A DNA stretch of 64,000 nucleotides, from contig OZ237750.1 of NCBI GenBank assembly GCA_965178125.1, positions 310,001-374,000 on the forward strand. The letters run 5' to 3'. Positions 1-64,000 of the stretch are shown here, in pieces. The DNA is from Bilabrum cf. latius (Eukaryota). The notes below the pieces were generated by a model that was given only the letters and a program-made list of their open reading frames with translations, did no database searches and had not been told where the DNA came from. A program made the translations under genes and the position numbers. Within the stretch, counting starts at the first letter, position 1. Each line of letters starts with the position of its first letter.

Positions 1-3000
1 GCCCGACCATCTGCTGCTGCTGCTGCTGCTGCTGCACCGCCAACATCGTCGTGCACGTTGCCGGCAGCGGCCTCGATGCGGGCCGCGCGCGCCTGCGCCC
101 ACGCCGACCGTCCATCGCCTCGTCCCCCCGTTGTTCCCTGATCCTGGCCAGGAACCGCGCCATCGAAAGCACCGTAGCCCTGGCTACCCCTGTCCGTAGA
201 CCGTTCTTCCTTCTGTCCGCTGGATGCAGCCAGCCCGGCAGTAGGACCTGCCTTGCGGAGTGCCGCGTCGATCAATGGGTCATCGGACCGGGGACCCAGA
301 GCCTGCGTCGCGTCCGCCTCTCCACTCTTTGAATTGCCCCCTGATGTCGCAATCTCGGACTCATCGGCCGGGCGAGTGTACTTGTACGCGAAGAATCCCG
401 CCCCGCCCACCAGGGCCACCGCCATCACAGACCCCAGCACAATCGTGCCGATCAGTCCGTCAGACAGCCGATCATCCTTGGGGTCACCCCCGAACTGCTT
501 CTTAGGATCGTCCACGATCTCCAGGTCAGACACGGGCGCGCACTGACCCTGCACTGTGCCAGACTGGCAAGCACCCACGATGCGAGCTGCGATGGCAGAC
601 AGCTCGGTAGCCGTGCCCCCAGCCACCTCGATCCGGAAGTTCACCTTCAGCTCCTGCTGCTGCTGCTGCTGCACCTGCAGCGCACGGCCGGACACCAGCC
701 CCATCCACGCCATGGCGCCCCTCGCAGCCGACCCCAGGCCCTCTTGCACCCAGGCCCCAGATGTACCCAGTGCTCGCCTCCTCCTTCTCGTGTTGTTCCC
801 CGACACCAGCTCCACTGACGTGATGAACACCTGCGACTCGGACACCCCCGCTGCCTGGGCCACGTTCTCCCTGAAGCCGCGACGCTCCTCAGAGCCAAAG
901 TCCTCCACTGACGTCACGTTGATCGACACCGAGTACTGGATGAACGGGTCTGACTCAGCGCTGGGAGCCGCGCACTCAGCCACATTGCACGCGCGATCCT
1001 CCGATACACGAGTGCAGAAGTCCAGACCAGCCGATGGAGACGCGCCCGTGGCGTTGCGACGGCGAGTCTGCACGCCCCCGCCACACGGCACATCGCATGC
1101 GTCGTACGCCGACCACGCAGAGTACTGGCACGTCACCAGCTGGCACCGCACCGGGTCCTCGGACCAGCTGCCGCCCAGCTGGCACGACGTCACCAGTGGG
1201 TGGCCCTCTGGCTGCGGCAGGTGCTCGGCATCGCACGAGTACTGGCATGATGGCAGCCCATCCTCGTTGTAGGCGCACATGATGGAGCCGTTCACCGGCC
1301 GGGACAGGGCGGGGCATCCGGAAGCCACGGACACGAACTGCGCCCCTCTCGTGGCATACCTCACTTGCCCGTTCGGAGCCACTGACAGAGGGGGGGCGGG
1401 CTGCTTTGGATCGGGAACGGGGGTATTTGGGTGTGGCCTTCTCCACACGGGCTGCCCCGACAGCAGGTCCAGTGCGATTGCCTCCTGCTGCGTGTTCAGC
1501 AGCACCACCTGCCCGTTGCTCACCGGCGTGGACGCAGTGGACACCAAGTTGCTCTAACCGCCCTCCGTCTGGCCCACCACCTCCACCCAACGGGGCACCA
1601 AGGGGGCTTCCGAGCTGGGCCCCGACTGAAGCGCGAACTGCCGCCCGATCGAGTCGCCCACCAGGATTGTCTGCTCCATGCTGCCAGGGAACAAGGCCAG
1701 GCCGGGCGCCCCCTGCACGGACACGGACGCGCCCGTGATGTCCTCGTGCGGAACCTCGAACAGATCGCGCGGCGCCGGCGCGTGCTCCCCGAGATCGTAG
1801 CTCAGCACCAGCCCGCCGCGCTCCGCCCACGCGCTGGTTGCGACCAGCAGCCGCCCGTACAGCTCGTCCAACACCGGGCCGGCCACCACGGGAGCAGCTA
1901 CCGACGGGTGACTCGGGCTCGTGCTGCTGACCCACAGGTTGCATGACCCCACTGGCCCCTGCCCGCACTTGGGCGGCTCGCTGCCAGTGGCACCCTGCAC
2001 GCACGCGCTGCTCGCAGACTGGAACGCGCGCATCGCATACACCGCCCCTGCAGACGTGGCTGCGTACACGGCGCTACCGTCGTGCTCCACCGCCACCCGG
2101 CCCACGAATGGGGACCCGGAGTCGGATATGCACCGCCACTGCGGCTGGCCCGTGGCTGCGTCCAGCGCCACCAGGGTCGACCCGAACGAAGCGAAGATCG
2201 ACGTGCCGCTTGGCTCGGCCGCAGCCGAGGATGACGACGAGGACGGTGCAGGGGCAGACGGTGACGGGCCCGGGGTCGCAGAGGGCTGCTTCAGCTGGCC
2301 GGTCCTCATCTCCTCCTGTGCGGCGTCAAAGTCGAAGAACACCGGGCTGCCCGTGGCCCCACTGCTGCTGCGGTAGTTCCACAGAGACCCCGCAGAGGAC
2401 GGGTCCATGGCCAGCAGCAGCCGCTGGGACCCGCCCGTGGCCGCCAGCAGCACGCTGCCGTCAGGGGACAGCACGGGGGCGATGCCGCGCGGGGCCCCGG
2501 CCCCCAGGTTCCGCACCCACGCCGGCTCCACCTCAGTTGCCGTGTGTCGGAGAGCGTACATCAGCCCGCCCGCCGTCATCACGAAGCTCACCGTGCCGTT
2601 GGCAGACACCACCGTCCCGGAGTCCACGCTCCTGGACGCCCGGCTGCCCTGCTGTGCGGGGAGCAGGAACGACTGCGCTGCCGTGGCGAAGTCGGTCACG
2701 TTGCCGCGGAAGAAGCCCGTGTTCTGCGCGCCCCTGCCGCTGGGCCACCCGTTGGACGTGGACGGCGGCACTGGGGGCACGGGCGAGGGGGAGGGTGCGG
2801 GCGGGGTGGGGCTCGGCTGGGGTGTCGGGGTGGGCGCGTTGCCCACGATGTCGTAGTTCAGCACGTACGTGTCGTTCTTCAAGCTGGAGTAAGCGATGCC
2901 CACCTGCACCCAGCCCAGCTTGCCGTGGAAGTCCTTCCAGTTGCCCTCGTCCACGGCGGTGGACAGCCGCAGGTTCAGCACGGGCTTGTCGCAGTACGGC

Positions 3001-4051
3001 GTCACGGGGTTGCTGAACTGGGTGCCCCGCGGGATGTTCCGCACAGAGCTCCAGTTGAAAGCGGGGTCTTGCAGATCCTGCAGCGATGGCCCGCGAGCGA
3101 TCCCGCGCACGCCGCCTAGCCGGTTGAAGTCGTAGAAGGAGAGGCCGCTGCCGGCCGGAACAGTGCTCGGCGCGTCCTCATCTTCGGCCCGCGTGTCCCA
3201 CAGGAGCCACTCTCCTGCCTTGCCATCCACGTACTCTGCATGCCCTCTTGCATAGATGGACTCGCCATTCAGCAGCGTGTTGTACCAGGACCCCGTATCA
3301 TCGGCGCCTTCCAACGCCGTGTACACGCTGATGTACCAGTCAGGATCGCCGGAATCCAGTGGAGTGCGGCTGGTGCTGAACCGAACATACTGCAATTTTC
3401 AATTGTATTTCAAAAGGACGAGGAAAGATGCATGGTTGATCCATTCTACTTGGAGCAGCGCGAGGTGACAGCCTGGAAACCACGAGTCCCACCGCCAACC
3501 TGGATCGGATCCCATAGCCTCATGCACATGCGTTTGATTCTCACCTAGATGTCACGAACCGTTGTAGATCGACCAGTTAGACCTGTACCAAGCTTTGTCA
3601 GCCCGGGCGCCAGGTCAATGTAGGCCTGCAATGCTGGAATGCACGTTGATCGGTTCAGATTTCTAGTTCGCGCTGTCGCCATCCAGCGCGCCACGTCCCC
3701 CCTGAATGAGGCCACACATTAAGCAAAGATGCTATCGCATATTCTCACTTTCTCGGTTGCATTGTTGATAAGGGAAGTGCTTCCGGAGCTCTGCGGGGGC
3801 GCGCCATCAGCCACCTCCAGCGAGTATGGCACTGTGGACAGCCCGGGACTTCCACCCTGGTTGAAGCTTGCAACATTCAAACCAATAGTAAAATTGACGA
3901 CGTGCCCGACTTCGGCTTCAGCCACTCTCTCGGTGAAAACAGGGCTGCCAATTTGTTCATCCAACCCGAATCGTTCTGCAGCTCCCGTCTTGCAAAAGGC
4001 CGTAGCGGCAAGTCCAGCCAGAAGAGTGACTACTTGAGCCACACACTTCAT
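1..4051 (-). CDS. Type I membrane/cell-surface protein: signal peptide, PQQ-like beta-propeller repeats, Sushi/CCP, TSP1, single TM helix (3' end runs out of the window)
   Basis: ATG at 4051 gives a signal-peptide-like MKCVAQVVTLLAGLAATAFC. Introns are 3626-3748 and 3390-3544 (GTGAGA..TTGCAG). In-frame TAGs lie at 3545-3547 and 1554-1556. PQQ-like motifs include LVALDAATGQPQW and ALDLLSGQPVW. Sushi: CPALSRPVNGSIMC..CQYSC..CQLGGSWSEDPVRC (~1140-1318). TSP1: CQYSAWSAYDACDVPCGGGVQTRRR..CNVAEC (~970-1130). TM: LIGTIVLGSVMAVALVGGAGFFAY (~385-455). Confidence 0.8.
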
Positions 4052-4404: not shown

Positions 4405-7400
4405 TCATCGGCTGCCTCCCTTCAGGTATGCAATTAAGGTATTAAATAGTTCATGGCCACTGAGAGACCCGTCAACCTTTCTAAGCTGCAGACGGGTGAA
4501 CTCGGGCCGCGATTCGAGATAGCAGTGCAGCTCTACCCAGCTGTCCTTGTCGTCCTTAACCTTACCGTCTTCGCTCAGCTCCAGCAGAAGCGGGTCAACG
4601 ATGCTGTCTGTGCTTTGGAAGCGCTGGATCACTAGATGCCCGCTCTTAGACGAGAACCTGATAAGCGTAATGCCGTCCAAGTGCTATGGCGGCAAGGCTG
4701 TCGCTGTCGCGCTTTGCCTCAGCATGTGCTCAGCAGCATTCCTGCCAGCAAAGGGAAACATCGCCCCAGGTCTATGGCTGCAGTACTCCCAAAGCCGTGG
4801 AATCTGCGCTGTCCGTCTCATCGTGGGCTCAATCGTGCTCCAGTACTTTTGCCAGACCGGCAGCCGAATCGTGCAGTAGGGCTTGGGCTCACCTCGCTCG
4901 GTGAACACCTTCATATGCATTATTTGCTCCAGGGATTGCTGGCCATGTACTGCAGCCCGAAACATACATTCCATGTCGATGCGCCGGATGGCAGCGCATT
5001 CGACTGTGGCCCAGCGTCGGCGGCACGGCTCCCTCGCGATGTTGAGGCACTCTCGAATGGTGCCCTCTAGCACGTGCCTTGCCGTGACTTCGACCTTGAT
5101 CGGATCACCACTCATCCCGATCAACTAGCGGTGCGGTTTTTTCAAAATAAGGCCTGTCCGCTGACCGTGGCTTTTATTGTATGCCGCCCACTCGTTCTCA
5201 ATGGCGTACTTCCACACGCGGCCAAAGCTGGTGTGGCATCTAAGATCCAGCCGCCACAGCGCCATCAGACCCAGCGAGATGGCTTGCACGCCGCCCACAC
5301 CACCCTCCGCCCTCATCCACTGCTCCACCTCGCCTCTCCGTCGCTCTATGTCCACGTAAAACCCCGTGTCCAAGTCCCAGATCGCAGTGGCTGCCAGGCT
5401 CGGCACCTGCGGTATTCCCGCACCTGCACCTGCACCTGTACCAAAACCAGCACCGGAAGCAGCGCCAGCACCAGCACCAGCACCAGCACCAGCACCAGCA
5501 CCAGCACCAGCATCAGCACCAGCATCAGCACCAGCTCCATCGCCAGCACCAGCACCAGCGCCAGCACCAGCACAGGCACCAGTAGCTGGAATACGATCAG
5601 GGTGTGGCAGGGGTTCTGTCCGTGTCTAAGCCTCGGTTCTGCCCCGCTCCATCATGTTGCTTGCCACGTCGATTCTAGACCGGGACTGCAGCATAGACAG
5701 CGCCATTGGCGCACAGCAGCACATCCCTTGGAAACGGGCGAACTCCTTCGGGCTGCCTCTCAGGCTGTCTTGGATTCGATGCACCGCATCTGCATCTGAG
5801 CAGATGCCTTCCCCCGACTAGCCCATGTCCCAAGGATCGACTTCCTTCTCGTTCGGGGCATAGCTTGTCATGCTTGCCCCAATCATTTGCCCTCCCACCA
5901 AACGCGGGTCAATCAATCGCTTCGCCCGTGTAGTACAGACTCCAGGCATGGCATCGCCTGACTTCGTTGCCGCTTCCATCAGCATGCGCCGCGGCATGAG
6001 GCCGCATGCGACGTACCTGTAGTGATCAGGATCACCAAGACACGACGGCACGTCCCCCTCTCCGAGCACGCTGTCAACTTTCGCGGTGTATAGAACTGAC
6101 GTGCCACCAACGGAGCGGTGGCCCAGTCGTCCCTGTAGCAAGCCTAACAGCAGCTCCACTACTGGCAGAAGTGACGTATCAGCCGCTACGTCGGAAATAG
6201 GTTCAGCGAAGGGTGACCCGGACCCTTGAGGTACCGATGGAGCTGCATCAGCGACCGTAGAGTTCATTTGACTGGCCGACGTGCTCCCCGCAGGCGCCGC
6301 GCAGCTGCCACCATCAGCACCTTCATCATCTGAATCGGAGTCAGAATCGATGCCTTGGTACGCAGCAGAACGGCCGGCCCCGCAGCCTCCATCGGTAGCA
6401 GACTGCGAACCAGCAACTGCATACTTCGTGGCGAGCGTGCCGCCAAAAGCAGACAGGAACGTTGCCTGCCGGGCTTCCACACCTTGTACGGGGTTGCGCC
6501 ACGCGTCCATCCCATCGAGCACCACTAGCACGTGCTTCCACGACTAAAGCTCCTTGCCGACCTCGTCCGCAGTACGGCATGCGCGGATGCGGTGGTACCG
6601 CTGGGGCCATTGGCCTGTGGCATCTTTGAAGATTCCAACGGACTGCAGGCGATGAAGGTGCCTCAAAATGCCTGCGCATATGCATGCCTTGAGTCTCCTG
6701 AGCAGCCTGTGGCGCTGGGCCTCCCAGAAATCAGTGGGCGAATCTGCTTCAGCTGCACCCCCGCCGGCAGATGTAACCATCCCTGGGTCCGCCGCCTTGC
6801 TGGCAGACAATGGAACCTCCGTGCCAGTGAGTGCGCATGCAGGGGCCAACAGGTCGGACTAGCTGGCACTCGAGCTGTCGTGCGCGTGGGTCGTACTAGC
6901 GCCTGTACCCGCGCCCGCACCACCGCCAGCTCCAGCACCGGAACTAGCACCTGCACCTGCACCTGCACCTGCACCTGAACCAGATAATTGTGCCGTATTG
7001 GGACCGGCACCCCCAAGCCGCATATCGACAGGTGGGTCAAGCATCTCAGCAGCACACCGCCCCAGCGCATCCTGCTGCGCATCTACCTCCCACGGCTCCA
7101 AGTCCCCATCAGGGGGCAGCTCCTCCAGGCACGCCGCCACCGAGATGTCGCCCACGGGCACGAAGAACACACCGCCGGAGAAATGGTCCCGCCACCGGGC
7201 ATGCCTCGCGATCGCCATCGCGATCGATGTGGTGCCTGTGCGGGGCCAGCCGACGATGCCAACGCACCGGCCGGGAGCATCACCCCTGCTTGGCATAGCC
7301 AACTGAGAGTACGCATTAGCGATACCCTCAGCATTGGTAAGGATGACTGATCTAGCCCTGATCATCGGGTCGCCAGTGTCGAACTGCAGTGGGCTGGGGA

Positions 7401-8298
7401 CGAACCATGGCTGATGGTCCACCTGGCTGTCGACGAGCACGTCGGTGTCTCCGAACGACGCGAAACTTGCTTCTAGCCGGGCTAGGGCTAGGTCCTCTCT
7501 CGCCTACAGCTCTTCTACGGAGCAGCAGCTGCCTCCAGGGTGGCGACTCCTTCGGATAATCTCCTACACTTCAGGGGTTCTGAATGTCACCAGCTGCATG
7601 CCCTCGGGGCGCTCCCCTCCAGCCCCTACAGCGTCTCGCACTGCTTGATCAAAGCAATCCTTCACAAAATCGTGGGCTGATTTGCCTGGCGGTTGTGGCG
7701 ACAAAACGCCTTCCACAAACACTCGAGCAAACCGCCGCATGTCCCGGTCGAGCTCCGAAATCCTGCTGGCGACAACGAAAGGTATCCCAGCAGCACATAG
7801 CTAATGCGCGGCTTGCAAGGATTCACATGCCCCCAAGAAGATAATTGCGGGCGCCTTCTCCGGAACAGTGCGATGGACAATAGCGCGCATGGGGGAGTCT
7901 CCTTCGGTCGCCCCAGCGAGTTGAAGTGGCGCAATTCTCCCATGGCCGGTGCCGCTGGTCTCAAGAGCCAACCCCGATTCAAGGCCGTGAGTGCAGAGGA
8001 TCACAAGGGGCGGACCCTCAGCGAGCACTGAACCTAACGCACGCTCTGTTGCGGCTCTGAAGAGGACCCGAGCAGATCGCTTCGGCGAGTCATATCTACG
8101 GGTAGCGGTTGCGACAGCGTCCGAAATGGATTTCATTTCTGCCTCATAGTCCAGTCTATGCACAGGAAACTCAGCACCGTCGTCCATTTTGCCATAAAAT
8201 GGCTACGAGTACAGACCTGCGACAGTTAGTTTGCCCTTCTTCTTGCTCGTAGGAAACCACTCACAGAGACTTCCGCCAGCAGCCGTGTGGGCAACCAT
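4405..8298 (-). CDS. CHAT(caspase-like)-STAND/NB-ARC-like NTPase-STAT-type SH2 protein, copy A (~1297 aa with TAG=Gln)
   Basis: One frame runs from ATG 8298 to TGA 4405-4407, broken only by 10 TAGs (8203, 7801, 7564, 7504, 6859, 6544, 5818, 5626, 5125, 4684). CHAT-like dyad: ILCTHG..IFLGACES..LCAAGIPFVVA. P-loop region: CVGIVGWPRTGTTSIA..HFSGGVFFV. Walker B: VLVVLDGMD. The C-terminus YWSTIEPTMRR..RLW..PGAMFPFAGRNAAEHML..GITLIRFSSKSGHLVI resembles a STAT linker plus SH2 domain. Confidence 0.8.
5444..5580 (+). repeat. (CCAGCA)n hexamer repeat encoding a Gly-Ala tract in copy A
   Basis: The run ccagcaccagca... is directly visible. A related (GCACCT)n run lies at ~6946-6977. Confidence 0.85.
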
Positions 8299-12000: not shown

Positions 12001-12377
12001 ACCATGTCTCGGAAACCTGTAGGCCTAGAATCATCGCCGGCTGTTGCTGTTTGGACCAATAGTTCCTCCGTGTGGCCCCTCTTGGCATCATCCTCCAGTG
12101 CAATGAAGCCATGAGTTCCATGAGAACATAAGAGCAAGACCGGCGCCCCCGAACAAAGTGCAGTGTTTAGGGAAAACTTTGTGGCTGCTCTACACACTAT
12201 ACGAGTTCGCCGACAAGCATGTTTGCTATCATCAGGCGTCTTTGCTGCCTAGTATAGCCCTTTACGCATCTCATTGATGTCGGCTTCATAGTCAAGCTTG
12301 TCGACGCACTAAAAATCATCGCCCCAAACGAAAGGTTGAGAGTAGAGTCCAAAGATCGCAGGTGGCGCTTTTGCCAT
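9081..12377 (-). CDS. CHAT-STAND NTPase-degenerate SH2 protein, copy B (~1098 aa with TAG=Gln); tandem paralog of 4405-8298
   Basis: ATG 12377 (MAKAPPAIFGLYSQPF) to TGA 9081-9083, with 8 in-frame TAGs (12309, 12249, 10899, 10404, 10398, 10002, 9543, 9456). Motifs: LLCSHG..AVLGACYS..LCAAGVPFVVA, GWPRTGTT, VLVVLDGMD and FWFRLEPAVR..QLW..PGAFFPF. It is collinear with copy A. Confidence 0.8.
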
Positions 12378-27500: not shown

Positions 27501-28154
27501 AGGCTCGTGGGCGGGCGGGTGCAGCGTGTGGTAGCGGAGGGATTGGCCTCAGCCGTGGGAGGGTCCATCGCCAGCGCGGTCGGGGCGATGAGCAGCCCAG
27601 CTGGCTTTGTCGCCATGGTTGGGATGGGACCTGGGATGCAGACGGTGGGGGCGGGGACGGGCAGTGGCAGTGGCGGCGACGCGGCACACGGTCTTGCGGG
27701 GCTGCATGACCTCGTCCAGGCGTGCGTGGTGGGCGTGGAAGGCGTCAGCGTTTCTCTGCCGCCGCGGGATCATGCATCTTCAAGTTGTGGCCGTGGCTCT
27801 CAGGGCCTCCCGCATGCTGGCGCTTCGGGTGCATCTCACGGGCGAAATTCCGCCGGCGATCAGTCGGTTCGGGCTGGAATTCACGCGAGGTTCGTGGGTC
27901 TGAAGCTGAGATCAACCGCTGAGGAGGAGGAAGGGAACGAAATCCAGCCGGTTCCTTCCAGAGGCGACACTGGGGCTGAGGACACTGCTGAAAGCAGCAG
28001 TGAAGCTGATGTATATCGGGCCGCTCCGCGCAATCCATAGGTGGCCGCACTTGATGAAGGTCCAGGTAGCTGTGCTGGCCTGTCAGATATATTCACGGGG
28101 ATGTGGCCGTGCGGGGCTTGCAGCCAGCGACAGGGAAAGAGGGTGCCGCAGTGA
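24561..28154 (+). CDS. Hypothetical low-complexity protein (~1200 aa with TAG=Gln; start uncertain)
   Basis: ORF-track pieces 24561, 25899, 26208 and 27222 share one frame and are joined only by TAGs (25734, 26136, 26190, 27099+27102, 28038). Ends at TGA 28152-28154. No domain recognised. Confidence 0.65.
27339..27465 (+). repeat. 69-bp tandem duplication (about 1.8 copies) encoding GQRGGLSSP(R/K)LSRGSGVVS
   Basis: ggccaaaggggtggtctctcgagtccaa starts at both 27339 and 27408. Confidence 0.85.
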
Positions 28155-28233
28155 CACCTTGATCTCGACAATGATTCCCTTCAGACGTTTGGTCCAATAG
28201 TTTCAAATATATTGTATTGAGTTGCATTGCAAG

Positions 28234-52765: not shown

Positions 52766-53404
52766 TCAAGCGCTATCTGAAGTATCCTCTCGCCCAGCCG
52801 GCCCATCCGCCTCCCCGTCAAGCAGGACACCAGCAGCCACCTCCGGGTGAGTTGCGTGCGGGTGCTCGTTTGCATGAGCAATGTACGACAGTGCACCGTT
52901 CCAAAGAACAGAGACGCAGTTCGTAAACAGAATCTAGCTCTGCAGCGGGACGACCTTGAAATTAACGAACTGTGCCGCGGGCCATATCGCCCAATTGACG
53001 AGCATCGTGTGCCAAAATTTCGATCGAATCATCTCCACTGGAGACTTCCCCTCAATGACAGCTTTAACGCCATAAAATCCAACCACAAATGTCGGAGCCC
53101 ACAAAAGCTGGTCGGCCGCAACACGAGCCAACACTGCCCGCATGTGGCCCCCTGGGAACTTCCTAGCTAAGAATGGGTACCAATACACCAGTACAGGTGC
53201 CACAAATACTGTCCGGATTCCTCCAATCTTGCAGGTACGCTTCCAGTCCCAATTGCGACTAGCAGATTTGTCAATAAAACGTTCCAGCTACTAGCAAGCA
53301 ATATCTCCGCCGCACCCGATTCCAAACGCAAGGCACATATTACCTACAAGAGGATATCTCTACAGTGAACTGCTATACAGGTATCTCAGGCGATGCCATG
53401 GCAT
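52766..53404 (-). CDS. Mpv17/PMP22 family membrane protein (~212 aa)
   Basis: Translates as MPWHRLRYLYSSSL[TAG]RYPL..GDIAC[TAG][TAG]LE..WDWKRT..VAPVLVYWYPFL..DQLLWAP..NWAIWPAAQFVNFKVVPLQS[TAG]ILFTNCVSVLWNGALS. Ends at TGA 52766-52768. Confidence 0.92.
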
Positions 53405-53547
53405 CACCAGTGTTGAAAACCACACAGTTTTCGTCGTCCACTGAAGCTGGCGCCGCGCACGATGCGACCAGGTGGTTCCGCAAGTACTTGCTCGGTGCGA
53501 GCATTGCGCAAATTATAGGGTATTCCATCGGAAATCGTGCGCCAAAC

Positions 53548-55110
53548 ATGTCAGTTCCATTATTTCAGCTTCACACACGACGAGATCTTGGGCCAATGCT
53601 TGGATGTGGCTATGAGTGGAAGGTTTATCTTCCGTCTTAGCTAGTACTATCTGCGTCGTGCGGGCGATCGTGCGTTTGGAAGGTGGCAAACAGAGAGTAG
53701 TCACTTCAATCACTAGATTTATTGTACCGCATCCCGTTTACGCCCTTTCTTACCGGGTATGGCGAAGTTCCTGTCGAGGACATCAAGGTTCGCTCCGCAA
53801 GTATTATTGGTGCTCGGACAATGTCAGCATACCTGACTGAAAGAGCGGACTGCGATTTGCTTGGTCGTGTAGCATAGTACAATGGAGAGCTGAATGAGAA
53901 GTACGGTTTTGAAGCAGCTGGTGCCATTATCGCGGCGTCTCTATGGCTGAAACATACTGTGGGAATCTGCGTGGGGGACATCAAGCTGGAGAACTACCTC
54001 GCACTGGACAAGGGGCGCCGCATTGCTCTTTGTGACATTGGCATGGGTGTTCGCTGCGGTATTCCCTGCAGGCTGGCCCCCAATAGGAACTCACAGTACT
54101 TCGCCCCGGAAGCACTTGCCTCGATTCGCAACGGGACTTCCTTCGACCCCGAGCTGGCCGACGTCTTCTCCATCGGATGCTGCATCGTTGGGCTGCTCAC
54201 AGGACGACGAGTCGTCTTCACCGAGAGCGGCAGAGCAGTATACCCCGCCACCATTGGCAGATTCGGCCCGGGAGTCCTCTAGCTGATCGGCATGACCCTG
54301 GATACGAACCCCGCCAAGCGAGCCGGGCTTGAGGAGCTGGGCGACCATCCCATCATCCGAAACACCCAGAGCATGCAGACGCTGCGCCTCATGATGTACG
54401 GACGTAAGCCTTGGCTTGCGAGCATGGCCCATCCTCGGGGCGCGGGTGTCGTGGCTTGGTGTGCGCTGGGGGAGCCCGCATCGAAGCACCACATGCCACG
54501 TGAGCAGCAAAATGTTCAGAGCACCAGGGGGCCGGAGGAAGCCGCCTCACAGGCCTCCACCAGCACCGTGTCGCTGTAGACTGCACGGTTGCATAGCAGG
54601 GGTGTCAAAGAGGGGGGCTCTACATCCTCCTCACACGCCGGACGCGGCAACTCGCGCGATTCAGGTCAAAGCGGCGAGGCCGGGACGACTGGCACCCGGA
54701 CACGAGGTGCGCGGGGAGACCATGTCCAGTGCTCGCCCGCGGATGCTACGGTCGGTACGGGCTAGATGAGAATGGAATCGGTCTCCTCGCCCGACGCCAC
54801 GAGTCCCGCGGTTCCCGATTTTTCGTGGAGCCCCGCCTCCACAGCCTCCTCGAAATCTCTGGGAGGAGGAGGGGCGCGTGCACGCCGAGGGCTGATGCGG
54901 CGAGGGCGCGCCGGGTCTGCGAGGTGCACTCCCAAGGCATCGCCTCGGGAGCGTGGCAAGGGGGGCCGTTCGTGCGAGGCCGCCGGGCCATCTCCTGAGT
55001 ATCTGGACATGCGTGAGCTGTACGCTGCGGCACGGGGATGCCTGCTGCCCTCGTGCTCCGAGGTGCTGCTATGGGGGTGTGCCGTGGCAGGGAGCCGTGG
55101 CAGTGTGTGA
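53548..55110 (+). CDS. Divergent Ser/Thr protein kinase (~520 aa)
   Basis: Motifs: GICVGDIKLENYL, ALCDIG, QYFAPE, ADVFSIGC, LDTNPAKR..HPII. Six in-frame TAGs (53638, 53698, 53875, 54280, 54577, 54763); ends in TGA. Confidence 0.75.
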
Positions 55111-55511: not shown

Positions 55512-58500
55512 ATGCAAGTTCGAGCGGCTTCAATCAAGAAGTCAGCGACCGTGGCTCCACCCTCGCTGCCTGGAGCGTCCACCACAGGTGATAGACCGGT
55601 CGCCACGATCCGAACGACTGGAGAAATATCGCGATCCCAGCAGTCCTCTGCCTCAATGGTATCTGCCGGCGTCGCTTCGAGGCCACGAAGGCTGCGGCGG
55701 CGGCCTCGAGGAAAGGACGATGATAGCAGCTGCGCCGGTCCGGAAGCACGGAATGGCCGAGCTGCCGGTCATGTGTAGTCAAGCACACATGTAGGACAAT
55801 CGCTAGGCACCGGAGCTTGGGAAGGAGGGCTGCAAGAGCGATCAGAGGTTTCGATCCTGAGATCATCTGGGGCGGGCACTGGAGCTGGCGGCCCACCCTT
55901 TGCGCATTCCGGCCCGCCCCCTCCAGCCGCAACCAAGCGAAGATCTGGGGCTTGGAATGAGGATGACAGCAACGAGCTGCGCAGGGCGGTGGCTCGCGTA
56001 GGTACGGACAATTGGGAGCTTGTGAGAACACCAACGAACTTGGTCGCAAGCAAGGCGCCTTCTATTCCATTGAGTACCCGTGCAGGCATCGATTGCACCC
56101 GTACGCTTTCATTTCATTTTACGTGTTTGCAGGTGCAAAGCCTTATGAGCCGCCCTTGGACCGCCAAGGTCCTGCGAGCTCGCTGGAACAAGGTAATCAA
56201 GCAAGCCAGAGTTAAGGGTGGCTGGATCGCCGCCGAGGACTTGCAGCTGAAAGAACTCGTCGTGTCCATGGGCGGCCCCGAGGGCATCCAATGGAGCGCA
56301 GTCGCCATGAAGATGGACACCAACAGGGATGGGAAGCAGTGCAGGGACCGCTGGCACAACCACGTCGACCCTAGCATACGAAGGGGAAAGTGGACGCCCG
56401 AAGAGGACGACAGACTTTTCTTGTTGCAGAAACGGATCGGAAATAGATGGGCAGACATCGCCAAGCTGCTTAACGGCCGCACTGAAAACATGTGCAAGAA
56501 TCGTTACAACTCCAAGGCGAAGTCCGTGTGGGCCTCGGACCGATGGCCCAGGTTCGACGGCAAGCCGCAGTCGTACATCGACGAGTACCTGGGGATGGGC
56601 AACTCCAAGCCGGCGGACGCCGTAAAGGAAGCCAAGGCAGCTGCTGTGGAGCGCACTGCGACTGCCCTCCGCATGCAAGAGGTCACTAGGATGCGTGGGC
56701 ACAGCGTTGACATGGACGGGAGCGACGAGGACGAGGACGAGGACGGTCATGCAGGCAAGAGAGCCGGCAGGGGCAGGGGCAGGGCAGGCGCGCGGGGCTC
56801 GAGGCGGAGTGGTCCCCAGGGAACAATGGGAAGAGGCAGCGGTCCATCCAGCGGGGCCTCGGCCTCGTCGGCAGGAATGCGGGGCCCCGGCACCAGTAGC
56901 AGGGGAGTGGTGCACGGCGTTGCTGGCTGGGGGCAATTCACGCTGCACGGTTAGGAGGACCTCGCCCGTGCTGTGCGGGATGCGGGGGACAGCTTCCTTA
57001 TCGCTGGGGGTAGCACCCGCGGGATCGATGCGTCGCTGTATAGGGGTCGAGGCGGCGCGCGCAGCGACGCCGAGGCTGTAGGGCGCATGCGCAGGCGGCA
57101 GGTCACTGCCTCCCCGCCTCCGCCTGGTAACGACCAGGATGTGCTGAGGGATTGGGCCCTCAGGACAGCCTCCACGTTTGCCTACGCGCAGAGAGACAAA
57201 TTGATTCCGGATCCGTTCGCGGGCGTGGATCCGGAGCTGGTGTTGAGGATCGCCGCAGCAGCTGGTGAGATGCCACCGCAGTCCGACCAGGAGAAGAGAC
57301 AGACGGTCGCCTTGGTGGCCCAGCTGCTGGCACAAGCACACTTCCAGCTGCAGCGGATGAGTGAGAGCGGAGATGGGGCCACAGAGGAGTAGACAGCCGG
57401 CTCTAGCGTGCCTGAACCAATGTCTGCGGAGGAATTTAACATGGAGAGAGGGCGCGGCGCCGGCAGGTCCGTTGCCGAGGGCGAGGGCGAGGGCGAGGCC
57501 ATGGAAGGCGACATGGATGAACTTGGGTCGGAAAGCGGAAGCAAGACGCGCTCCTCCGCGTCCAATTCGGTGGCTGGGTACAGCGGCAGCACGGGGATCA
57601 CGGGGATAAGCCCGTCTGGCGAATCCACCCCCTCGCCCGCCGTGCTTCAAACGGGAAGGGCGCGAGGGATGGGAGGGAATGGAGGCAGCCAGACTTCCTA
57701 TTACCCGTCGACTTCGCAGCTCGACCAATCCAATTCCGATTTCTTTTTGGGGACCCGCATCGCCAGGCCGGCGCCTGTCTCTGCCGACCGTCCCGCGCAT
57801 GAAGTGGAGCAGTACGTCGGTGCGATGGCCAGGGCACTCATCAGGGTCGTGGGATACATGCAAGACAGGATGGTCATTCCCAGGCACTTCACGCCGCGCG
57901 AGGCCGAAGATGGGGACGACAACAAAGACGAAGAGCCTGAGGCGGAAAGTGGAGAAATGATGGCTGCGGCTGCTAGCTCTGGTGCAGCTGCGGACACGAC
58001 AGCGTTCCCCATGTCTCACAGCTCTGTTGCAAGGCACTGGGACTCTAGCGTGCGAGGAAGCGGCGACGGGCTCGGTTTAGGCGCGGTTCCAATGACGGCA
58101 GATTCTCCCGGTGCACTCCCGCAACGCTCGCCGACATCTCTGGCTGCGTCTGGCCAGGAAAACGGATACTTTGCACAGGCAAGTTCCAGCGCGCGGGCTG
58201 GAGCAACCGCCAGCGATGCTGGACTGACACGCGAGCCAGCTGCGCTCCCGTCAGCCGCCCCGGCAGCAGCCTCTCCCATGCGGGCGGGGGAAGGCGGATC
58301 CCCGTCAGCATCCAGCGCGCACGGGAGGTCCTCCGTCGCTCTCACGGTCAGCACGGAGTCCTCGGCTGCAGCCATGGCGCAGCCCAGGAGCGGCAGCGGC
58401 AGTCACGCAGGTGATGGCGGCGGCAGCTCGTACCATTCGAAGCAGCAGCCAGGTCAGAAAGGATCGTCCGGGATGGAAAGCGTGCCGAGGTCTCCAATCG

Positions 58501-61256
58501 TGTCTCCCACATCAATGACCGAGCGAGTGCCGCAATGGTCCCCTGGGCCCTCGGCAGCGGTAGCGGATGGTTCGGCGCACAGCGTCGGGCGCTTCGTGAG
58601 CTACGGAAGCGGAAGCGCCGCTGATGATGATGACGAGAACAACATGCGGTCTCCGCAACTGGATGCCATGCAGTCTCCCGGCCTCGGCCCTGACGTGCCC
58701 CAAGACCCGAATCCGCACGACATGTCCGGCGTATCCTCCGGCGGACTACAGCGCGGCAGATCAGTCGACGTGCAGCAGCTCTGGAGGCTGTAGTAGCAGG
58801 GAAGCAGTGCAAGTACTGGAATAACCTCTCAATCGCAGGGCCGCCAGGGCAAGCAGGCAGCTCCGACGGGACCTCTGTTCGCGATGGATGCAGTCAATAC
58901 AATCGCAGAGGGTCGCGAGCGGGACCAGGATGAGGGCTTGCGGCTTGAAACTGGCGAGCAGCAGCCGAGTCGCTCAAGCAGATTGAGAAGAGCACCTGCT
59001 AATGGCAGGGGTATTTCTCGAGGTGGGAGGGCGGCCCAGGTCTCCTTATCGCTCGGACGAGGCGGTGCGCAGCGGTTGATGGGGCCGGGCAGCAGCAGCG
59101 GGTCTGGAAGCAGCAGTGCAAGAGGCGACGAGATCGACATGTCGCCACGCTCTGGTTCATTTGGCGGTCGGTCTGGCATGTGGGGCCGAGGCAGCCTCGC
59201 GGGAGGCAGGTCTCCTCTCCGTGATGACGGTGACGGTGACTCTGGCATTGATTTTCGGGGCGGCGGGGCCGATGGTGGAGTGGGAGGGAGGGTGGGGCAG
59301 CGGCGCGGCATCTTGTCAATGCCGCCGAGGGAGGGTTCCTAGCGGGACGATGCAAGTGGTCACGCCGGCCGTGGCGGCACGGTTGGGATTGCTGTGCAAG
59401 GACAAGGACAAGGGCAAGGCACAGGCGGCATGCAAGGCGCCATGCTCATGAGCAACACGAGCGAGGCCCCCTCATACATCGGGCTGACCCCCTCTTCCCC
59501 CAGGTTGCCCAGGGGGGCAAGCGCCACGGCAGGAGGGGCCATCGACTTTTTTGGGCCCAGCGCGCTCGCGGCCGTGTCAGGTGCATCGCATGGCGGTACA
59601 AGGCGGCGCGATCGGATCGGTGATTTGGCCAGGCACTCTTCCCGTGGCTCCGATCTTGAGACGCCCCTGAGCTCTCCGCGGCTGCCTTCATCTAGTGCAT
59701 GGGGAGCACCTGGCCAGCTGCGTGACTCGTAGTAGTCGGATACGGCGCGCAGTAGTGCGTCAGATTTGCCTCGAGGAGTGTAGCCCATGCCCGGCAGCGG
59801 CGCCAGCTCACCCACCACCGAGGTGGCCATGCAGGTGGCCCGCATGAGCCTTCAGGGCGAGGACGAAAAGGAAAAGGATTATGGTGTTGGGAATGGAGCT
59901 GAAGATAGCAACAATGGACAGAAGGCATACAACCGCAGCAGTACTTCTGGTGCTGGTGCCGGGGCAGAGCAGACCAGCGATAGAGGCACCCAGCAAGACA
60001 TGCAGTCCAGCGCGCCATCGATGGGAAGCGGCGGCTTCATCGTGCCACGGATTGAAGTCGCGCGGCTGTCCGTCGGCTCCGAATCGGTGAACAGCGGCGT
60101 CCACGGCAACGAAGGCGGGGTCCACGGCTCCCATGCGGAAACGGAAGCCACGGCCACGCCGACCAGCGGCAGGGGATCCGCCAGTGACGACAGCCATGGT
60201 CATCGTCGTGAGGGCAGGCCTCTGATATGGGGTAGTGCCAGTGCCGGTGCCAGTGCCAGTGCCAGTGCAGGGGCAGCGGTAGGAGGACAGCTGGGTCGCA
60301 CACACAGCAGCGGGCTGTCTTCGTTTCACGGTGGCAGTCCTCCGCGGCCCGCGATGAGGGGGCTAAAGTCCTCCCCTGGGATGGATAGAAGCGGTGGTAG
60401 TCGAGGTGGGGCACAGGGAGATGCCAGGCGCAGTGGTGGCCATGGGAATGGCAGTGGCACTGGCAGTGGCAGGGGCAGGGGATCTAGGTCGAGAGAGCAG
60501 AAGTTCCCCTCAAGCAACGTGCAGGGCACGCCCACTGGCGGCATCGCACTGATGGGGACGCCCGTGGATGGTATGCTGTCTCCTGCTGATGCGTGGGGCG
60601 GCTCTTTTGGTGGTGGTGGTTCAGGTGCGGATGCGGGCGGTGCGGATGGCGGCATCGCGGGAATCTTGGGGTCTGGGACCGTGCTGGGCTCGGGCATGGG
60701 TGTGACGAGTGGGGGTGGCAGGCGCGCCCGGGCCCGGTTACCCGTTCGAGGGAATGCGGGTGAAAGCAGGTCACGCTCCAGCCAGGAGCACTTGTACCGC
60801 AGCTCGGGCAAGCGGGCTGGGTCGGGGCCTGCTTCCATGCTCGGTAGCGGCAGCAGCACGGGAAGGGGCAGGGGCGGGGGGCAGTTTTTTGTCGCCGGTG
60901 GGCAGGAAGGGATGATGGGTCCGTCTCAAGACTCAGCCTCGGTGGGCAGCCGGAGCGATTCTGGCTCCGGATCCGGATCGGATGACCACTTGCTTCGCGC
61001 GTCGATTGGGTCTCTGGGCAGCTTGACTCCCGCTGGTGGTTCCGAGCGGTTTTGGGGGCAGCGACAGCAGCGTGATGGGTCTGTCGGTGGCAATAGGGGC
61101 GTGGTTTCCTCGAGTCGGCCTCCGGAAGATGAAGGGGGGACACGATTGTCGGCCTCTGGTGTTTCGCAGGTGCAGGTGCTGGACAGTCTGCTGCAGGCAG
61201 GCCCCGACTCGATGCGGTCGGACGGGGCCACTGGCAGGGGAGATATTCGAGATTAA
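55512..61256 (+). CDS. R1R2R3-type Myb transcription factor with long Gly/Ser-rich tail (~1877 aa)
   Basis: Three Myb repeats: GAWNEDDSNELRRAVARVGTDNWEL|VQSL..RARWNKV, KGGWIAAEDLQL..WSAVA..RDGKQCRDRWHNHVDP, and RGKWTPEED..GNRWADIAKLLNGRTENMCKNRY. Intron 56022-56132; nine in-frame TAGs; ends at TAA 61254-61256. Confidence 0.85.
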
Positions 61257-61366: not shown

Positions 61367-64000
61367 ATGGACAACGGGAACACTCGCCGAAAGCAGAGGC
61401 GTGCAATGGCTGCCCGTCAGTCTGACCAGTCTGATGGTGAAAATGTAGCGGCTGCTCCAACATAGGTGGAGGTGTTCGATAATCTCATCGTAGACGAGAC
61501 TGGACAGGGTGAAGACTATGGAGCGTCCGGCATGGAATCGACAACACCTCCTCTCAGTGGAACAGCAGACACAATGCCAACGCGCTCATCTTTAACTGAT
61601 GAAGAACTGAGGAAAGCCTTCGGATCTATTGTACTTCAGGTCCATCGGAGCGAGTTTGAATCGTTCTCCAAGCGGTATCTGCCGTTGATCCTTGCTGCCG
61701 GCCTGCGAACGAGAATCTACGCATCATGCGATCCGGAAGGAACCGGTGCAAGTCAAAAGACTGTATTTGTAGAGTGTTTTTTTGGGTCCGAGGTGAGGAA
61801 TGCGGTGCTTGGGTGTGCCGCTGTTGACTCAGCCGACATGCGTTTGTATCGAGTGTCCGTTTACATCCCGTTCCCTGTGCTTCCCAAATGATGCCACGCG
61901 ATGCCAATAAATTGCTGTGCTTTCATGAGTGTTCGCAGGAAAGGTTGATCTACTCCGCTTGGCGGCTTGGGTACTTGGTAGAGCTGGATCACCGAAGGCT
62001 GCGCCAGCTAGATGTGCAGCGCAATGCTCGCCTGGAGGAGCAGGCCCGGGCCCTCGGCCACTCGATCTTCGCTCCGGGGGGCGACGCGGCGGCTAAGGAT
62101 GGAGAGCTGCCGACGCTGGAGGACAAGGCCTTCGGGATCCCAGCACCGGCAGACCACCCCGTGCTCGGTTGCCTCCGCTGCGCGCTGTGCACCAGCAACC
62201 TGCCGCTCGAAGACGTCAAGGAGCGCGACCCGTACCACTACCTCAGGGCGCCTATTGATCCGTGCCCGCCCACCAGGTCAGCTGGCTGGAAGCTCTACAA
62301 GGTGGACAGCGGGACAGGCACTGTGCTCACGAGAATCCAGTGCCTCCGAGCTCTTCAGAACGTCCTGACTGCCCCTGAAAAAGAAGGTGGTGCTGCGCTG
62401 CCCCTCGACGCCGGTCAGAAATGGCTGGTGAAGATCTTCGCCCACCCGGATGAGGAGGAGAGGGAGCGCCTTGAGAACTACTGGTTGATGTGCTTCTCCT
62501 GCCCTTGGAACCAGCCAATCGACGCAATCAGAGAGTACGCAGGAGAGAAAGTGGCTTTCCTGAACTTCTTCACGGCGTATCTGACCTACAGCCTCGCGTT
62601 CCCTACCGTGATCGGCCTGGCGCTGTTCGTCAACCAGGTGCTGTTCGAGGCCCCCGGTGTCATCTGGGCCCCCATCTACGCTGCGGTTGTGTCGCTCTGG
62701 GCTGCGCTCATGTACGAGTTCTACAAACGCGCTGAGAACAACACCTCGCAGAAATGGGGCATGACAGGTTTCAAGCAGCGCGCCGCCATGCGGCGTGAAT
62801 ACTTGGATGCGGACTGGGTAGAGAACACGAGGTCACCGGTGACCGGGCTCCCTGGGCACGTGGTCGCGAACCAGTGCTGGAAGGGCATCCGCAGCTGCTT
62901 CTCGTCGAGCGTGTTTTCCCTGCTGCTCGGCATCGTGATCGTGACCTTCATCTCGACTTTCTTGGCGAGGATTTACCTGGTCAGGGCCGAAGAGGATGGC
63001 GACATCGAGGAGAACTGGGGCGGGTACGCCGCGAGCATCATCAACGCAGTGGTGATCGCCTTGCTGTCCTTCGTCTACAACCAGCTTGCCCAGCTGCTGA
63101 CCAGCTTCGAGGTGCAGCCCACCGACCTCGCGCACGAGGAATCACTCATTGTGAAAGGGTGCTCCTTCCAACTCATCAACAGCTTCTTCCCGCTCATCTA
63201 CGTGGCGTTCATCAAGCCAAGTGTTAGGAGCCTCTATGGTGTGGAGTCCGAGGGCTGCCAGCTCAACGAGAACGGGGAGCCAGATTGCCTCGCTGAGCTG
63301 CAGTCCCAGCTCGCGATCCTCGTCATCACGCGGCTCATCGTCAACAACATCATGGCACTTGCCAATCCGTACATCTTCCCCACTGTGATGTGGTTGCTAC
63401 GCCGACTGTTTTGCCTGCAGTGCGGGTGTATCCTCGGCGAGGATCTGGGTGCGGCTCACCCGCGGGAGAGTCCAGCAGACAGGGAGGCCAGGAGGGTGCA
63501 ATTCAGCACGTACGACCAGACCATGGAGCAGCTGATCCTGTTTGGATACGCTTCGCTGTTCGTCTCGGCCTTTCCTCTAGCGCCACTGATCTGCCTGCTG
63601 TCCAACTACATCGAGCTCCGCGTGGATGCGATCACCTTCCTGCACTACAGCGCTCGCCCGCTGCCCGCTGGCGCCTCCGGCATCGGGGCTTGGGGTCGGT
63701 TCGTCGGCCTCGTGTCGTTCGCGTCCTGTGCGACGAACCTCGGTGTGACGATTTTCACGAACCCGGAGCCGCTCTTCGGCGAATCTGACCTCGGCACTCG
63801 CACCGCGGTGTTTATCGTCGCGGAGCACGTGCTGCTGCTGTCCGTCTTTGTCATCGCCGGTTGGATCGGGGACGTGCCGCAGCTCACGCTGAATCGCGCT
63901 GCCAGGAACGAGTACCTGCAGGCAAAGCACCTCAAAGGCGACATCGACAGCCTCGACGACGTCCTCGTCGCGTCTGGTGTGGTGCCCACGCTGGCCGACG
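61367..64000 (+). CDS. Anoctamin/TMEM16 family channel or scramblase (3' end beyond window)
   Basis: Motifs: NQPIDAIREYAGEKVAFLNFF, LWAALMYEFYKR..KWG, EESLIVK..FQLINSFFPLIYVAF, LILFGYASLFVSAFPLAPLICLLSNYIELRVDA, ASGIGAW. TAG at 61463-61465; intron 61793-61938. Start approximate. Confidence 0.93.

What the first reader, a model, noticed from the sequence alone, without database searches (positions are those of the whole stretch)
1..64000. Non-standard nuclear genetic code: UAG is read as glutamine throughout the window
Seen in sequence: about 90 in-frame TAG codons (manual count) interrupt 17 gene models that are otherwise intact, with no frameshifts, and the conserved domains continue directly past them. 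None of the 18 complete gene models ends in TAG. TAG sits where homologs have Gln, and often in Q-rich contexts (EQ[TAG]QE at 50306; A[TAG]EQ[TAG]EQ at ~44404-44415; L[TAG][TAG]QG at 58791). Established knowledge: UAR=Gln (table 6) is recurrent in eukaryotes, while reassignment of UAG alone is rare (reported in the fornicate Iotanema and a few ciliates; UAG=Leu in one rhizarian). Inference: the gene content and high GC do not look ciliate or fornicate, so this may be an independent, undescribed reassignment.
Basis: partly seen in the sequence, partly recalled or inferred. Interest (0 to 1): 0.97.

Follow-up and report, generated by a model that had tools for sequence, protein, structure and literature searches.

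The report
Nuclear code reads TAG as glutamine
This GC-rich protist chromosome piece uses the stop codon TAG as an ordinary codon, most likely for glutamine, a rare change of the nuclear genetic code that seems not to have been reported for this kind of organism.

Summary
If TAG is read as a sense codon, 16 non-overlapping frames cover 84% of the window. They contain 88 in-frame TAGs and end in TGA (12) or TAA (2). The longest frame grows from 3,048 to 9,192 nt; reading TAA as sense gives no such gain.

- **Not an artefact.** Transcript-like contigs with two GT..AG introns removed carry the TAGs unchanged.
- **Shared with a relative.** An independent metagenome contig from a relative (L001; IFT88 716 of 804 aligned residues identical) also needs TAG read as sense, at other positions.
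- **The amino acid is glutamine.** In conserved context, TAG pairs with CAA or CAG in the relative in 3 of 4 cases. One TAG sits on a kinase column that is Q in 67 of 120 homologues. Likelihoods over 17 TAG codons put Q first.
- **Not shown.** No tRNA-Gln(CUA), eRF1 or peptide evidence is available. Occasional termination at TAG is not excluded. The claimed Q-rich context is not supported.
- **Lineage.** A SAR-type protist, nearest a dinoflagellate-labelled IFT88 group. It does not resemble the known UAG=Gln ciliates or Iotanema.

Verdict: probably a new lineage with a known, rare code variant.

The parts
1..64000 (.). Window-wide signal: TAG read as a sense codon; TGA and TAA terminate
   Evidence: 88 in-frame TAG in 16 ORFs covering 53,808 nt. 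Longest frame 9,192 nt, against 3,048 nt under the standard code and at most 1,962 nt in 50 shuffles.
3..3395 (-). TSP1 + PQQ-like beta-propeller membrane protein (runs off the window); 1 TAG at 1556
4405..8298 (-). CHAT-like paralogue a; 10 TAGs (8205, 7803, 7566, 7506, 6861, 6546, 5820, 5628, 5127, 4686)
   Evidence: Standard-code fragments from relatives end exactly before the TAGs at aa 166 and aa 1058. The TAG at aa 32 aligns with Q in 3 of 5 homologues.
9081..12377 (-). CHAT-like paralogue b; 8 TAGs. It shares the TAG at 10901 with paralogue a (6546), inside a 96%-identical converted block.
12622..20916 (-). STE11/CDC15-like protein kinase with a long tail; 7 TAGs, including 20898 and 20598 inside the kinase domain
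   Evidence: 20598 lies on a column that is Q in 67 of 120 homologues and is CAG in relative L001. 20898 is CAA in L001.
21766..24162 (+). IFT88; no TAG here. The relative's orthologue has 2 TAGs.
   Evidence: Window CAA pairs with L001 TAG in a 15/15 identical context. The conserved C-terminal tail lies downstream of L001's second TAG, and both genes end in TGA.
24561..28154 (+). Unknown protein, 6 TAGs; fast-evolving orthologue in L001
28234..28569 (-). Small conserved membrane-protein gene. It ends in TGA here and in TAA in L001, within about 6 codons of the same place.
29977..32583 (+). PAN + GH127-like protein; 3 TAGs (30064, 30289, 30454)
33460..34905 (+). Dcc1-like protein; 3 TAGs (33898, 34138, 34570). 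34138 lies inside the Pfam match.
36167..37606 (+). Unknown protein; 2 TAGs
38922..39854 (+). TPR protein; 1 TAG; ends in TAA
39988..49179 (+). Giant 3,063-aa protein with no Pfam match; 22 TAGs
   Evidence: Contigs of run X6 covering 12 of its TAGs show no differences.
49373..51025 (+). Unknown protein; 3 TAGs
53398..55110 (+). Divergent protein-kinase-like protein; 6 TAGs, 2 of them inside the Pfam kinase match
55512..61256 (+). Myb-domain protein; 9 TAGs; ends in TAA
56022..56132 (+). 111-nt GT..AG intron of the Myb gene, absent from a 3,844-nt contig of run X6 that keeps 5 TAGs unchanged
61888..63999 (+). Anoctamin (runs off the window); no TAG

Best explanation
The window is nuclear DNA of a GC-rich, intron-poor protist in which UAG is no longer a terminator but a minor glutamine codon, about 11% of Gln codons. 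UGA is the main stop and UAA a rare one. The trait is shared with at least one environmental relative, so it belongs to a lineage and not to one assembly.

Shown here: TAG is in-frame in transcribed, conserved genes. It interchanges with CAA/CAG between relatives. TGA and TAA mark conserved gene ends.

Inferred from established knowledge of other UAG/UAR=Gln lineages (Tetrahymena tRNA-Gln(CUA); Iotanema; passages of PMC5304391 and PMC11687900): a tRNA-Gln with anticodon CUA, one anticodon change away from tRNA-Gln(CUG), reads UAG but not UAA, and eRF1 has lost or weakened recognition of UAG.
For: (1) Frames. Reading TAG as sense raises the longest frames from 3,048 to 9,192 / 8,292 / 5,835 nt. 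TAA as sense gives nothing and TGA as sense gives at most 3,126 nt. Shuffles reach at most 1,962 nt.

(2) Domains. Kinase, GH127, Dcc1 and Pkinase matches run across TAGs.

(3) RNA. A 3,844-nt contig of run X6 lacks the 111-nt GT..AG intron, and a second joint skips 98 nt. It covers TAGs 55776, 56952, 57390, 58791 and 58794 with 0 differences. A 151-nt record of run X7, from another study, stops aligning exactly at exon start 56133. No 'other letters' were listed in 4 of 4 runs laid.

(4) Relative L001. Standard-code ORFs reach at most 2,085 nt; with TAG as sense they reach 2,691 / 2,457 / 2,013 nt. Its IFT88 has a TAG upstream of the conserved tail ...DDDFGDEDLSGLLDD, and both genes end in TGA.

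(5) Meaning, near relative. Among 961 columns with at least 10 of 14 flanking residues identical, TAG pairs with CAA twice, CAG once and CAC once. An empirical near-relative likelihood over 6 TAG pairs gives log10 L of -8.76 for Q, -11.06 for K, -11.49 for R and -14.36 for E.

(6) Meaning, distant homologues. The kinase column at 20598 is Q 67, K 31, H 7, E 6 of 120. BLOSUM log-odds over 17 distinct TAG codons give Q 13.7, E 7.6, R 4.4, K 3.3. In the control, subsamples of 11 observations decoded 56 of 58 sense codons correctly in at least 97.5% of draws.

(7) Codon behaviour. TAG density per gene tracks the share of CAA among Gln codons (Spearman 0.79, p 5e-4) and falls with GC3.

(8) Inherited TAGs. 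Standard-code fragments from relatives (78% and 85% identical) end exactly before two window TAGs.
Against: - Most TAGs lie at variable positions. In 5 of 8 near-relative comparisons the partner is not Q (H, R, N, L, S).
- The TAG at 20898 aligns with C/L/V in distant kinases; Q is only 3 of 117.
- Distant homologues alone separate Q from E only weakly (8.2 against 6.7 log2 units).
- The Q-rich context is not significant.
- No tRNA gene was found in the window or in L001. No genome is held, so tRNA-Gln(CUA) and eRF1 are untested.
- ORF ends were defined by TAA/TGA, so termination at some TAGs cannot be excluded.
- The RNA nature of runs X6-X8 is the tool's guess. After laying it marked X6 'probably DNA', and X6 holds a 51-kb record. 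My reading rests on the intron-less contigs.
Confidence: 0.85

Rival explanations
1. Ambiguous code: UAG is read as glutamine inside genes but still terminates some genes, depending on context. This is the situation in Condylostoma, karyorelict ciliates and Amoebophrya sp. ex K. veneficum.
For: ORF ends were defined by TAA/TGA, so a terminating TAG would be read through in my models. Two models have their last TAG only 37 codons before the end (TPR protein, aa 273 of 310; unknown protein at 24.5 kb, aa 1160 of 1197). The nearest lineage with a known code change, Amoebophrya sp. Kv, is ambiguous (passages of PMC12005148).
Against: The orthologous gene ends that can be compared coincide at TGA/TGA (IFT88) and TGA/TAA (small membrane gene), not at TAG. 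TAGs are spread along the genes and not clustered at 3' ends. Only TAG is in-frame, not all three stops as in the known ambiguous codes.
Confidence: 0.1
2. UAG is a sense codon for another amino acid, such as Glu, Lys or Leu, as in some ciliates, Blastocrithidia or the rhizarian exLh.
For: Distant homologues often show E, K or R at TAG columns. E is the runner-up in BLOSUM log-odds (7.6 against 13.7). One relative that is 79% identical has L at a TAG site and another has S.
Against: Near-relative pairs in conserved context are CAA/CAG in 3 of 4 cases and never GAR, AAR or a Leu codon. The empirical likelihood favours Q over K about 200-fold and over E by more than 10^5. The conserved kinase column is Q in 67 of 120.
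Confidence: 0.04
3. Artefact or decay: assembly or sequencing errors, RNA editing of UAG to CAG, pseudogenes, or TAGs hidden in unrecognised introns.
For: None found. This is only the general prior that in-frame stops usually signal errors or pseudogenes.
Against: Only one of the three stop codons is in-frame. The same letters stand in contigs of 4 of 4 runs laid, from 3 studies. Intron-less contigs keep the TAGs. An independent metagenome contig of a relative shows the same property at different sites. Frames stay open for up to 9.2 kb.
Confidence: 0.01

Closest known systems
Iotanema spirale (fornicate) nuclear code: UAG=Gln, UAA/UGA stop (Panek et al. 2017, PMC5304391; passages read)
   Same: Only UAG is reassigned, to glutamine, and UAA and UGA terminate. 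The expected mechanism is a tRNA-Gln(CUA) plus an altered eRF1.
   Different: An unrelated lineage. The Iotanema evidence came from transcripts, and its eRF1 carries T32G in the GTS motif. Here no eRF1 or tRNA could be examined, and the genome is 61% GC with TGA as the main stop.
Ciliates with UAG-only=Gln: Protocruzia tuzeti and two phyllopharyngean lineages (McGowan et al. 2024, PMC11687900; passages read); NCBI table 15
   Same: The same codon table.
   Different: The paper gives 27.4-53.6% GC for Phyllopharyngea, tRNA-bearing contigs of 12-13 kb capped by telomeres, and UAA as the preferred stop. The window is a 64-kb contig at 61% GC, with 12 of 14 ORF ends at TGA. Its IFT88 groups with a dinoflagellate-labelled clade. 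No ciliate row was available for that tree.
Amoebophrya sp. ex Karlodinium veneficum (syndinean; PMC12005148; passages read)
   Same: Possibly the phylogenetically nearest organism with a changed code, if the myzozoan placement holds. UAG is thought to be read as Gln by a cognate tRNA, and splicing is GT/AG.
   Different: There all three stops are in-frame and ambiguous, and the genome is AT-rich. Here only TAG is in-frame and the DNA is GC-rich.
Rhizarian exLh (UAG=Leu) and Scotinosphaera (UAG=Ser)
   Same: UAG is uncoupled from UAA.
   Different: A different amino acid. Leu and Ser score far below Q here.
UAR=Gln codes (NCBI table 6: many ciliates, hexamitin diplomonads, ulvophyte algae, oxymonads)
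   Same: A stop codon reassigned to glutamine.
   Different: TAA is not a sense codon here. Reading TAA as sense does not lengthen frames, and TAA ends two window ORFs and two L001 genes.

Membership tests
UAG-only = Gln nuclear code (table-15 type; Iotanema, Protocruzia, some Phyllopharyngea) | In-frame UAG in conserved, expressed nuclear genes | tested here: met
   88 in-frame TAG in 16 ORFs. Domains span TAGs. Intron-less contigs keep the TAGs.
UAG-only = Gln nuclear code (table-15 type; Iotanema, Protocruzia, some Phyllopharyngea) | UAG columns correspond to glutamine in homologues | tested here: met
   3 of 4 near-relative pairs in conserved context are CAA/CAG. Kinase column is Q in 67 of 120. 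Q ranks first over 17 codons and in the empirical likelihood. The number of informative columns is small.
UAG-only = Gln nuclear code (table-15 type; Iotanema, Protocruzia, some Phyllopharyngea) | UAA and UGA remain terminators | tested here: met
   Reading TAA or TGA as sense gives no long frames. IFT88 ends at TGA in both the window and L001, after a conserved tail. The small membrane gene ends at TGA here and TAA in L001.
UAG-only = Gln nuclear code (table-15 type; Iotanema, Protocruzia, some Phyllopharyngea) | UAG is not used as a terminator | tested here: inconclusive
   0 of 14 complete ORFs end in TAG, but ORFs were delimited by TAA/TGA. Only two orthologous ends could be compared.
UAG-only = Gln nuclear code (table-15 type; Iotanema, Protocruzia, some Phyllopharyngea) | tRNA-Gln with CUA anticodon | not testable with these tools
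   No tRNA in the window or L001. No whole genome is held.
UAG-only = Gln nuclear code (table-15 type; Iotanema, Protocruzia, some Phyllopharyngea) | eRF1 N-domain changes that weaken UAG recognition | not testable with these tools
UAR = Gln code (table 6) | UAA also in-frame as a sense codon | tested here: not met
   Reading TAA as sense leaves the longest frame at 3,048 nt. TAA ends 2 window ORFs.
Ambiguous 'no dedicated stop' codes (Condylostoma, karyorelicts, Amoebophrya sp. Kv) | All three stop codons occur in-frame | tested here: not met
   Only TAG is needed to open the frames.
Pyrrolysine-type UAG recoding | Rare UAG in a few specific genes, with pyl machinery | tested here: not met
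   TAG makes up 0.49% of codons, in 13 of 15 unrelated gene models, and it interchanges with CAA/CAG. Pyl genes were not searched for.

The most novel reading that the evidence does not exclude
This is an independent, so far unreported origin of the UAG-only=Gln nuclear code, in a GC-rich, intron-poor SAR protist clade. The clade is provisionally on the myzozoan alveolate side, is otherwise known only from environmental sequences, and has TGA as its main terminator. It would be the first case of this code outside ciliates and a fornicate, and it arose in a genome whose GC bias should favour, not deplete, TAG. That makes it a test case against simple codon-capture scenarios.
Probability: 0.5. 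Interest if true: 0.8.

Novelty: new member of a known kind. Interest (0 to 1): 0.72.

Why it matters
Nuclear code changes are rare. Uncoupling of UAG from UAA is rarer still: the passages I read name Iotanema, Protocruzia, some phyllopharyngean ciliates, one rhizarian and Scotinosphaera.

- **A new kind of case.** A further case in a GC-rich, non-ciliate lineage, shared by at least two related organisms, gives an independent replicate for asking how eRF1 loses UAG while keeping UAA and UGA. It also lets one ask whether GC-rich genomes can reassign UAG without first losing it.
- **A practical consequence.** Standard-code gene calls for this organism and its relatives are fragmented. Database proteins from relatives stop or start at TAGs. 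Annotation, orthology and phylogenomics of this clade will be wrong until table 15 is used.

Tried and rejected
- **Whole genome and earlier notes:** not available.
- **tRNA scans:** none found in the window or L001.
- **Rfam on the window:** no match.
- **RNA holders:** no listed holder is on record as RNA. The RNA labels are guesses.
- **Q-rich context:** tested and not supported.
- **Paralogue comparison (CHAT a/b):** one TAG-Q pair, one TAG-TAG pair and one TAG-E pair in good context; the rest is poorly aligned. Weak on its own.
- **PDB kinases:** PAK2 has E and MST3 has I at the 20598 column. They are too distant to decide.
- **Giant ORF:** no Pfam match. A search of a region of it found only 3 fragments from relatives, giving S, E, A and Q at four TAG sites.
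- **ESM Atlas on IFT88:** only animal-dominated clusters, no use for placement.
- **Stramenopile placement:** my first reading, from the best named hits. It was rejected after a cluster member of the sister group turned out to be labelled Symbiodinium and an AU test rejected window + stramenopiles (p 0.003). That group was named after seeing the tree, it is a single gene, and the branches are long.
- **Giant-virus or phage origin (code 15 occurs in phages):** rejected, because the window has spliceosomal introns and eukaryotic cilium, kinase and Myb genes.
- **Papers read but not relevant:** Carbon-A preprint and PMC6733595.

Full report
**What is in the window.** The 64-kb window is 57-66% GC. 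Under the standard code its longest stop-to-stop frame is 3,048 nt.

- With TAG read as sense, the longest frames are 9,192, 8,292 and 5,835 nt, and frames of at least 1,500 nt sum to 55,245 nt.
- With TAA read as sense nothing changes (longest 3,048 nt).
- With TGA read as sense there are many frames but none longer than 3,126 nt, which is what GC-rich DNA gives.
- In 50 shuffles of the window the longest TAA/TGA-free frame was at most 1,962 nt (mean 1,304).

A greedy non-overlapping set of 16 ORFs covers 53,808 nt (84% of the window). It holds 88 in-frame TAG among 17,935 codons, beside 556 CAG and 180 CAA. Twelve ORFs end in TGA, two in TAA and two run off the window. In the two off-frames of these ORFs all three stop triplets are common (TAA 30 and 49, TAG 129 and 114, TGA 289 and 373; sums). 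The absence of in-frame TAA and TGA over 54 kb is therefore the signature of coding sequence, and TAG is exempt from it.

**Genes.** Pfam identifies eukaryotic nuclear genes:
- a TSP1/PQQ membrane protein
- two CHAT-like paralogues
- a STE11/CDC15-like kinase
- IFT88
- a PAN + GH127 protein
- Dcc1
- a TPR protein
- a divergent kinase
- an R2R3-type Myb protein
- an anoctamin

ATG-started models carry 80 TAGs in 13 of 15 models. The two most codon-biased conserved genes, IFT88 and anoctamin, have none. Domain matches run across TAGs. PDB kinases align continuously over residues 6-148 of the kinase, which holds TAGs at residues 7 and 107. The Pfam matches for GH127 (122-247), Dcc1 (181-277) and Pkinase (146-318) each contain TAGs.

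**Not an artefact, not edited.**
- Eight runs from four studies hold the stretch 20000-29000.
- I laid four runs (X5-X8, Logan contigs) on 39950-59900. No differing letters or indels were listed.
- One 3,844-nt contig of X6 aligns to 55447-56021 and 56133-59323. It skips exactly 111 nt bounded by GT..AG. A second joint skips 98 nt, also GT..AG.
- A 151-nt record of X7, from another study, stops aligning exactly at 56133.
- Removing the 111 nt keeps the frame and restores a regular Myb repeat. These contigs therefore derive from spliced transcripts.
- They carry the TAGs at 55776, 56952, 57390, 58791 and 58794 unchanged. Other X6 contigs cover 12 TAGs of the giant ORF without a difference.
- Caveat: the RNA label of these runs is the tool's guess. 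After laying it marked X6 'probably DNA', and X6 also holds a 51-kb record.

**A relative shares the trait.** An IFT88 search found two unnamed proteins 88-89% identical. All further hits listed were 54% identical or less.
- The metagenome contig behind one of them (L001; 11,185 nt; 57% GC) is syntenic with window 18.9-28.8 kb.
- L001's longest standard-code ORF is 2,085 nt. With TAG as sense its ORFs reach 2,691, 2,457 and 2,013 nt. TAA as sense gives no gain.
- Its IFT88 (716 of 804 aligned residues identical to the window's) has two TAGs. The second lies upstream of a conserved C-terminal tail, and both orthologues end at TGA at the same position.
- Standard-code protein fragments of further relatives in the databases end exactly before window TAGs. 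P0242 (78% identical) ends before aa 166 of CHAT-a, and P0243 (85%) before aa 1058. The next fragment starts at the first Met after aa 1058.

TAG as sense is thus a lineage trait, with some TAG sites inherited and others turning over.

**Which amino acid.**
- *Near relative.* Among 961 window/L001 columns with at least 10 of 14 flanking residues identical, TAG pairs with CAA twice, CAG once and CAC once. In detail: window 20898 TAG with CAA, window 20598 TAG with CAG, and window CAA with L001 TAG in a 15/15 identical context. Looser contexts add R and N. With substitution frequencies estimated from the same alignments (2,188 observations), the six partners give log10 likelihoods of -8.76 for Q, -11.06 for K, -11.49 for R and -14.36 for E.
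- *Distant homologues.* The TAG at 20598 sits on a kinase column that is Q 67, K 31, H 7, E 6 of 120 STE11/CDC15-type homologues. The TAG at aa 32 of CHAT-a aligns with Q in 3 of 5 homologues.
- *Combined.* A Codetta-like BLOSUM62 sum over 17 distinct TAG codons gives Q 13.7, E 7.6, R 4.4 and K 3.3 log2 units. With the same procedure, 56 of 58 sense codons are decoded correctly in at least 97.5% of subsamples of 11 observations. The worst case is 83.5%.

*Against.* Many TAGs lie at variable positions:
- Partners in relatives are H, R, N, L and S in 5 of 8 close comparisons.
- The 20898 column is C/L/V in distant kinases (Q 3 of 117).
- Distant data alone separate Q from E only weakly (8.2 against 6.7).

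TAG density per gene rises with the CAA share of Gln codons (Spearman 0.79, p 5e-4) and falls with GC3 (-0.76, p 0.001). That is how a non-preferred synonymous codon behaves.

**TAA and TGA.** Both act as stops. Reading TAA as sense does not extend frames. IFT88 ends at TGA in both organisms. A small conserved minus-strand membrane gene ends at TGA in the window and at TAA in L001, within a few codons of the same place. Whether some genes still terminate at TAG cannot be settled from one window, because my ORFs were delimited by TAA/TGA. I keep an ambiguous code as the main rival, at about 0.1.

**Mechanism (inferred).** No tRNA gene lies in the window or in L001, and the genome is not held. 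By analogy with documented cases, a CUA-anticodon tRNA-Gln reads UAG but not UAA, as shown experimentally in Tetrahymena and predicted for Iotanema, and eRF1 is altered. In Iotanema the eRF1 change is T32G in the GTS motif (passages of PMC5304391; passages of PMC11687900). None of this is shown here.

**Who is it.**
- The best named IFT88 hits are stramenopiles at 42-54% identity.
- In quick ML trees the window clade (window, L001, P0122; support 100; stem about 1.0) falls in a 7-row set (SH-aLRT 98). That set includes a group whose 90%-identity cluster holds a record labelled Ift88 of Symbiodinium sp. KB8.
- An AU test rejects holding the window clade with the stramenopile rows (p 0.003, delta lnL 40).
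- Caveats: this is one gene with long branches. No ciliate, apicomplexan or perkinsid rows were available. The tested group was named after the tree was seen. The careful searches did not finish.
- Co-oriented gene blocks with a divergent switch near 21 kb, and a TSP1 membrane protein, fit a myzozoan alveolate, but that is recalled knowledge, not a test.
- The window does not resemble the known UAG=Gln ciliates, for which the paper gives 27.4-53.6% GC, 12-13 kb telomere-capped contigs and UAA as the preferred stop (PMC11687900 passages). Nor does it resemble AT-rich Amoebophrya sp. Kv, where all three stops are ambiguous (PMC12005148 passages).

**Novelty.** Seven full-text searches found no report of a nuclear UAG reassignment in a stramenopile. 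In alveolates they found none beyond the ciliates and Amoebophrya. The code itself is known (table 15 type), so I file this as a new member of a known kind, with about even odds that the lineage is truly unreported.

Noticed in passing
window 1-64000 (switch at about 20916-21619): All long ORFs left of about 20.9 kb are on the minus strand and all to the right are on the plus strand. This gives co-oriented gene blocks with a divergent switch region. The one exception is a small minus-strand gene at 28234-28569.
   Followed up: partly
window 6498-6769 / 10853-11124 and 7082-7288 / 11236-11442: The two neighbouring CHAT-like paralogues are 47% identical overall (481 of 1,024 aligned residues). 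They share two DNA blocks that are 96-97% identical, which suggests recent gene conversion. One shared TAG (6546 / 10901) lies inside the first block.
   Followed up: partly
window 28234-28569 (-); L001 8725-9039: A small (about 110 aa) membrane protein gene is conserved between the window and the relative. The relative has a TAG where the window has Asn. The stop codon differs: TGA in the window, TAA in L001.
   Followed up: partly
window 55349-55446 and 56022-56132: Two short GT..AG introns (98 and 111 nt) in or before the Myb gene are seen as joints in run contigs. The 111-nt intron is in-frame and free of TAA/TGA, so a plain ORF scan reads through it.
   Followed up: yes
window 38239-39111 and 38922-39854: An ORF whose sequence looked FKBP-like to me by eye (Pfam found no family; 2 TAGs) and the TPR ORF overlap in different frames. 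This is probably one gene with an unrecognised intron.
   Followed up: no
window 28727-29977 (+): An ORF with 5 TAGs has no counterpart in the syntenic relative, and its composition does not look protein-like. It is doubtful as a gene, so the count of real in-frame TAGs may be nearer 83.
   Followed up: partly
window 20000-29000 (runs X1-X8): The stretch is held by runs filed under four coded organism labels in four studies. The owner of this DNA may be an associate or contaminant of some of the labelled organisms.
   Followed up: no
window 5200-5400 and 6900-7000 (CHAT-a); 31270-31400 (GH127): Long Gly-Ala dipeptide runs are encoded by GCAGGA-type microsatellites in CHAT-a. The GH127-like enzyme carries a His-rich insert (HHHHHH...HPSHHDHSSHQH).
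   Followed up: no
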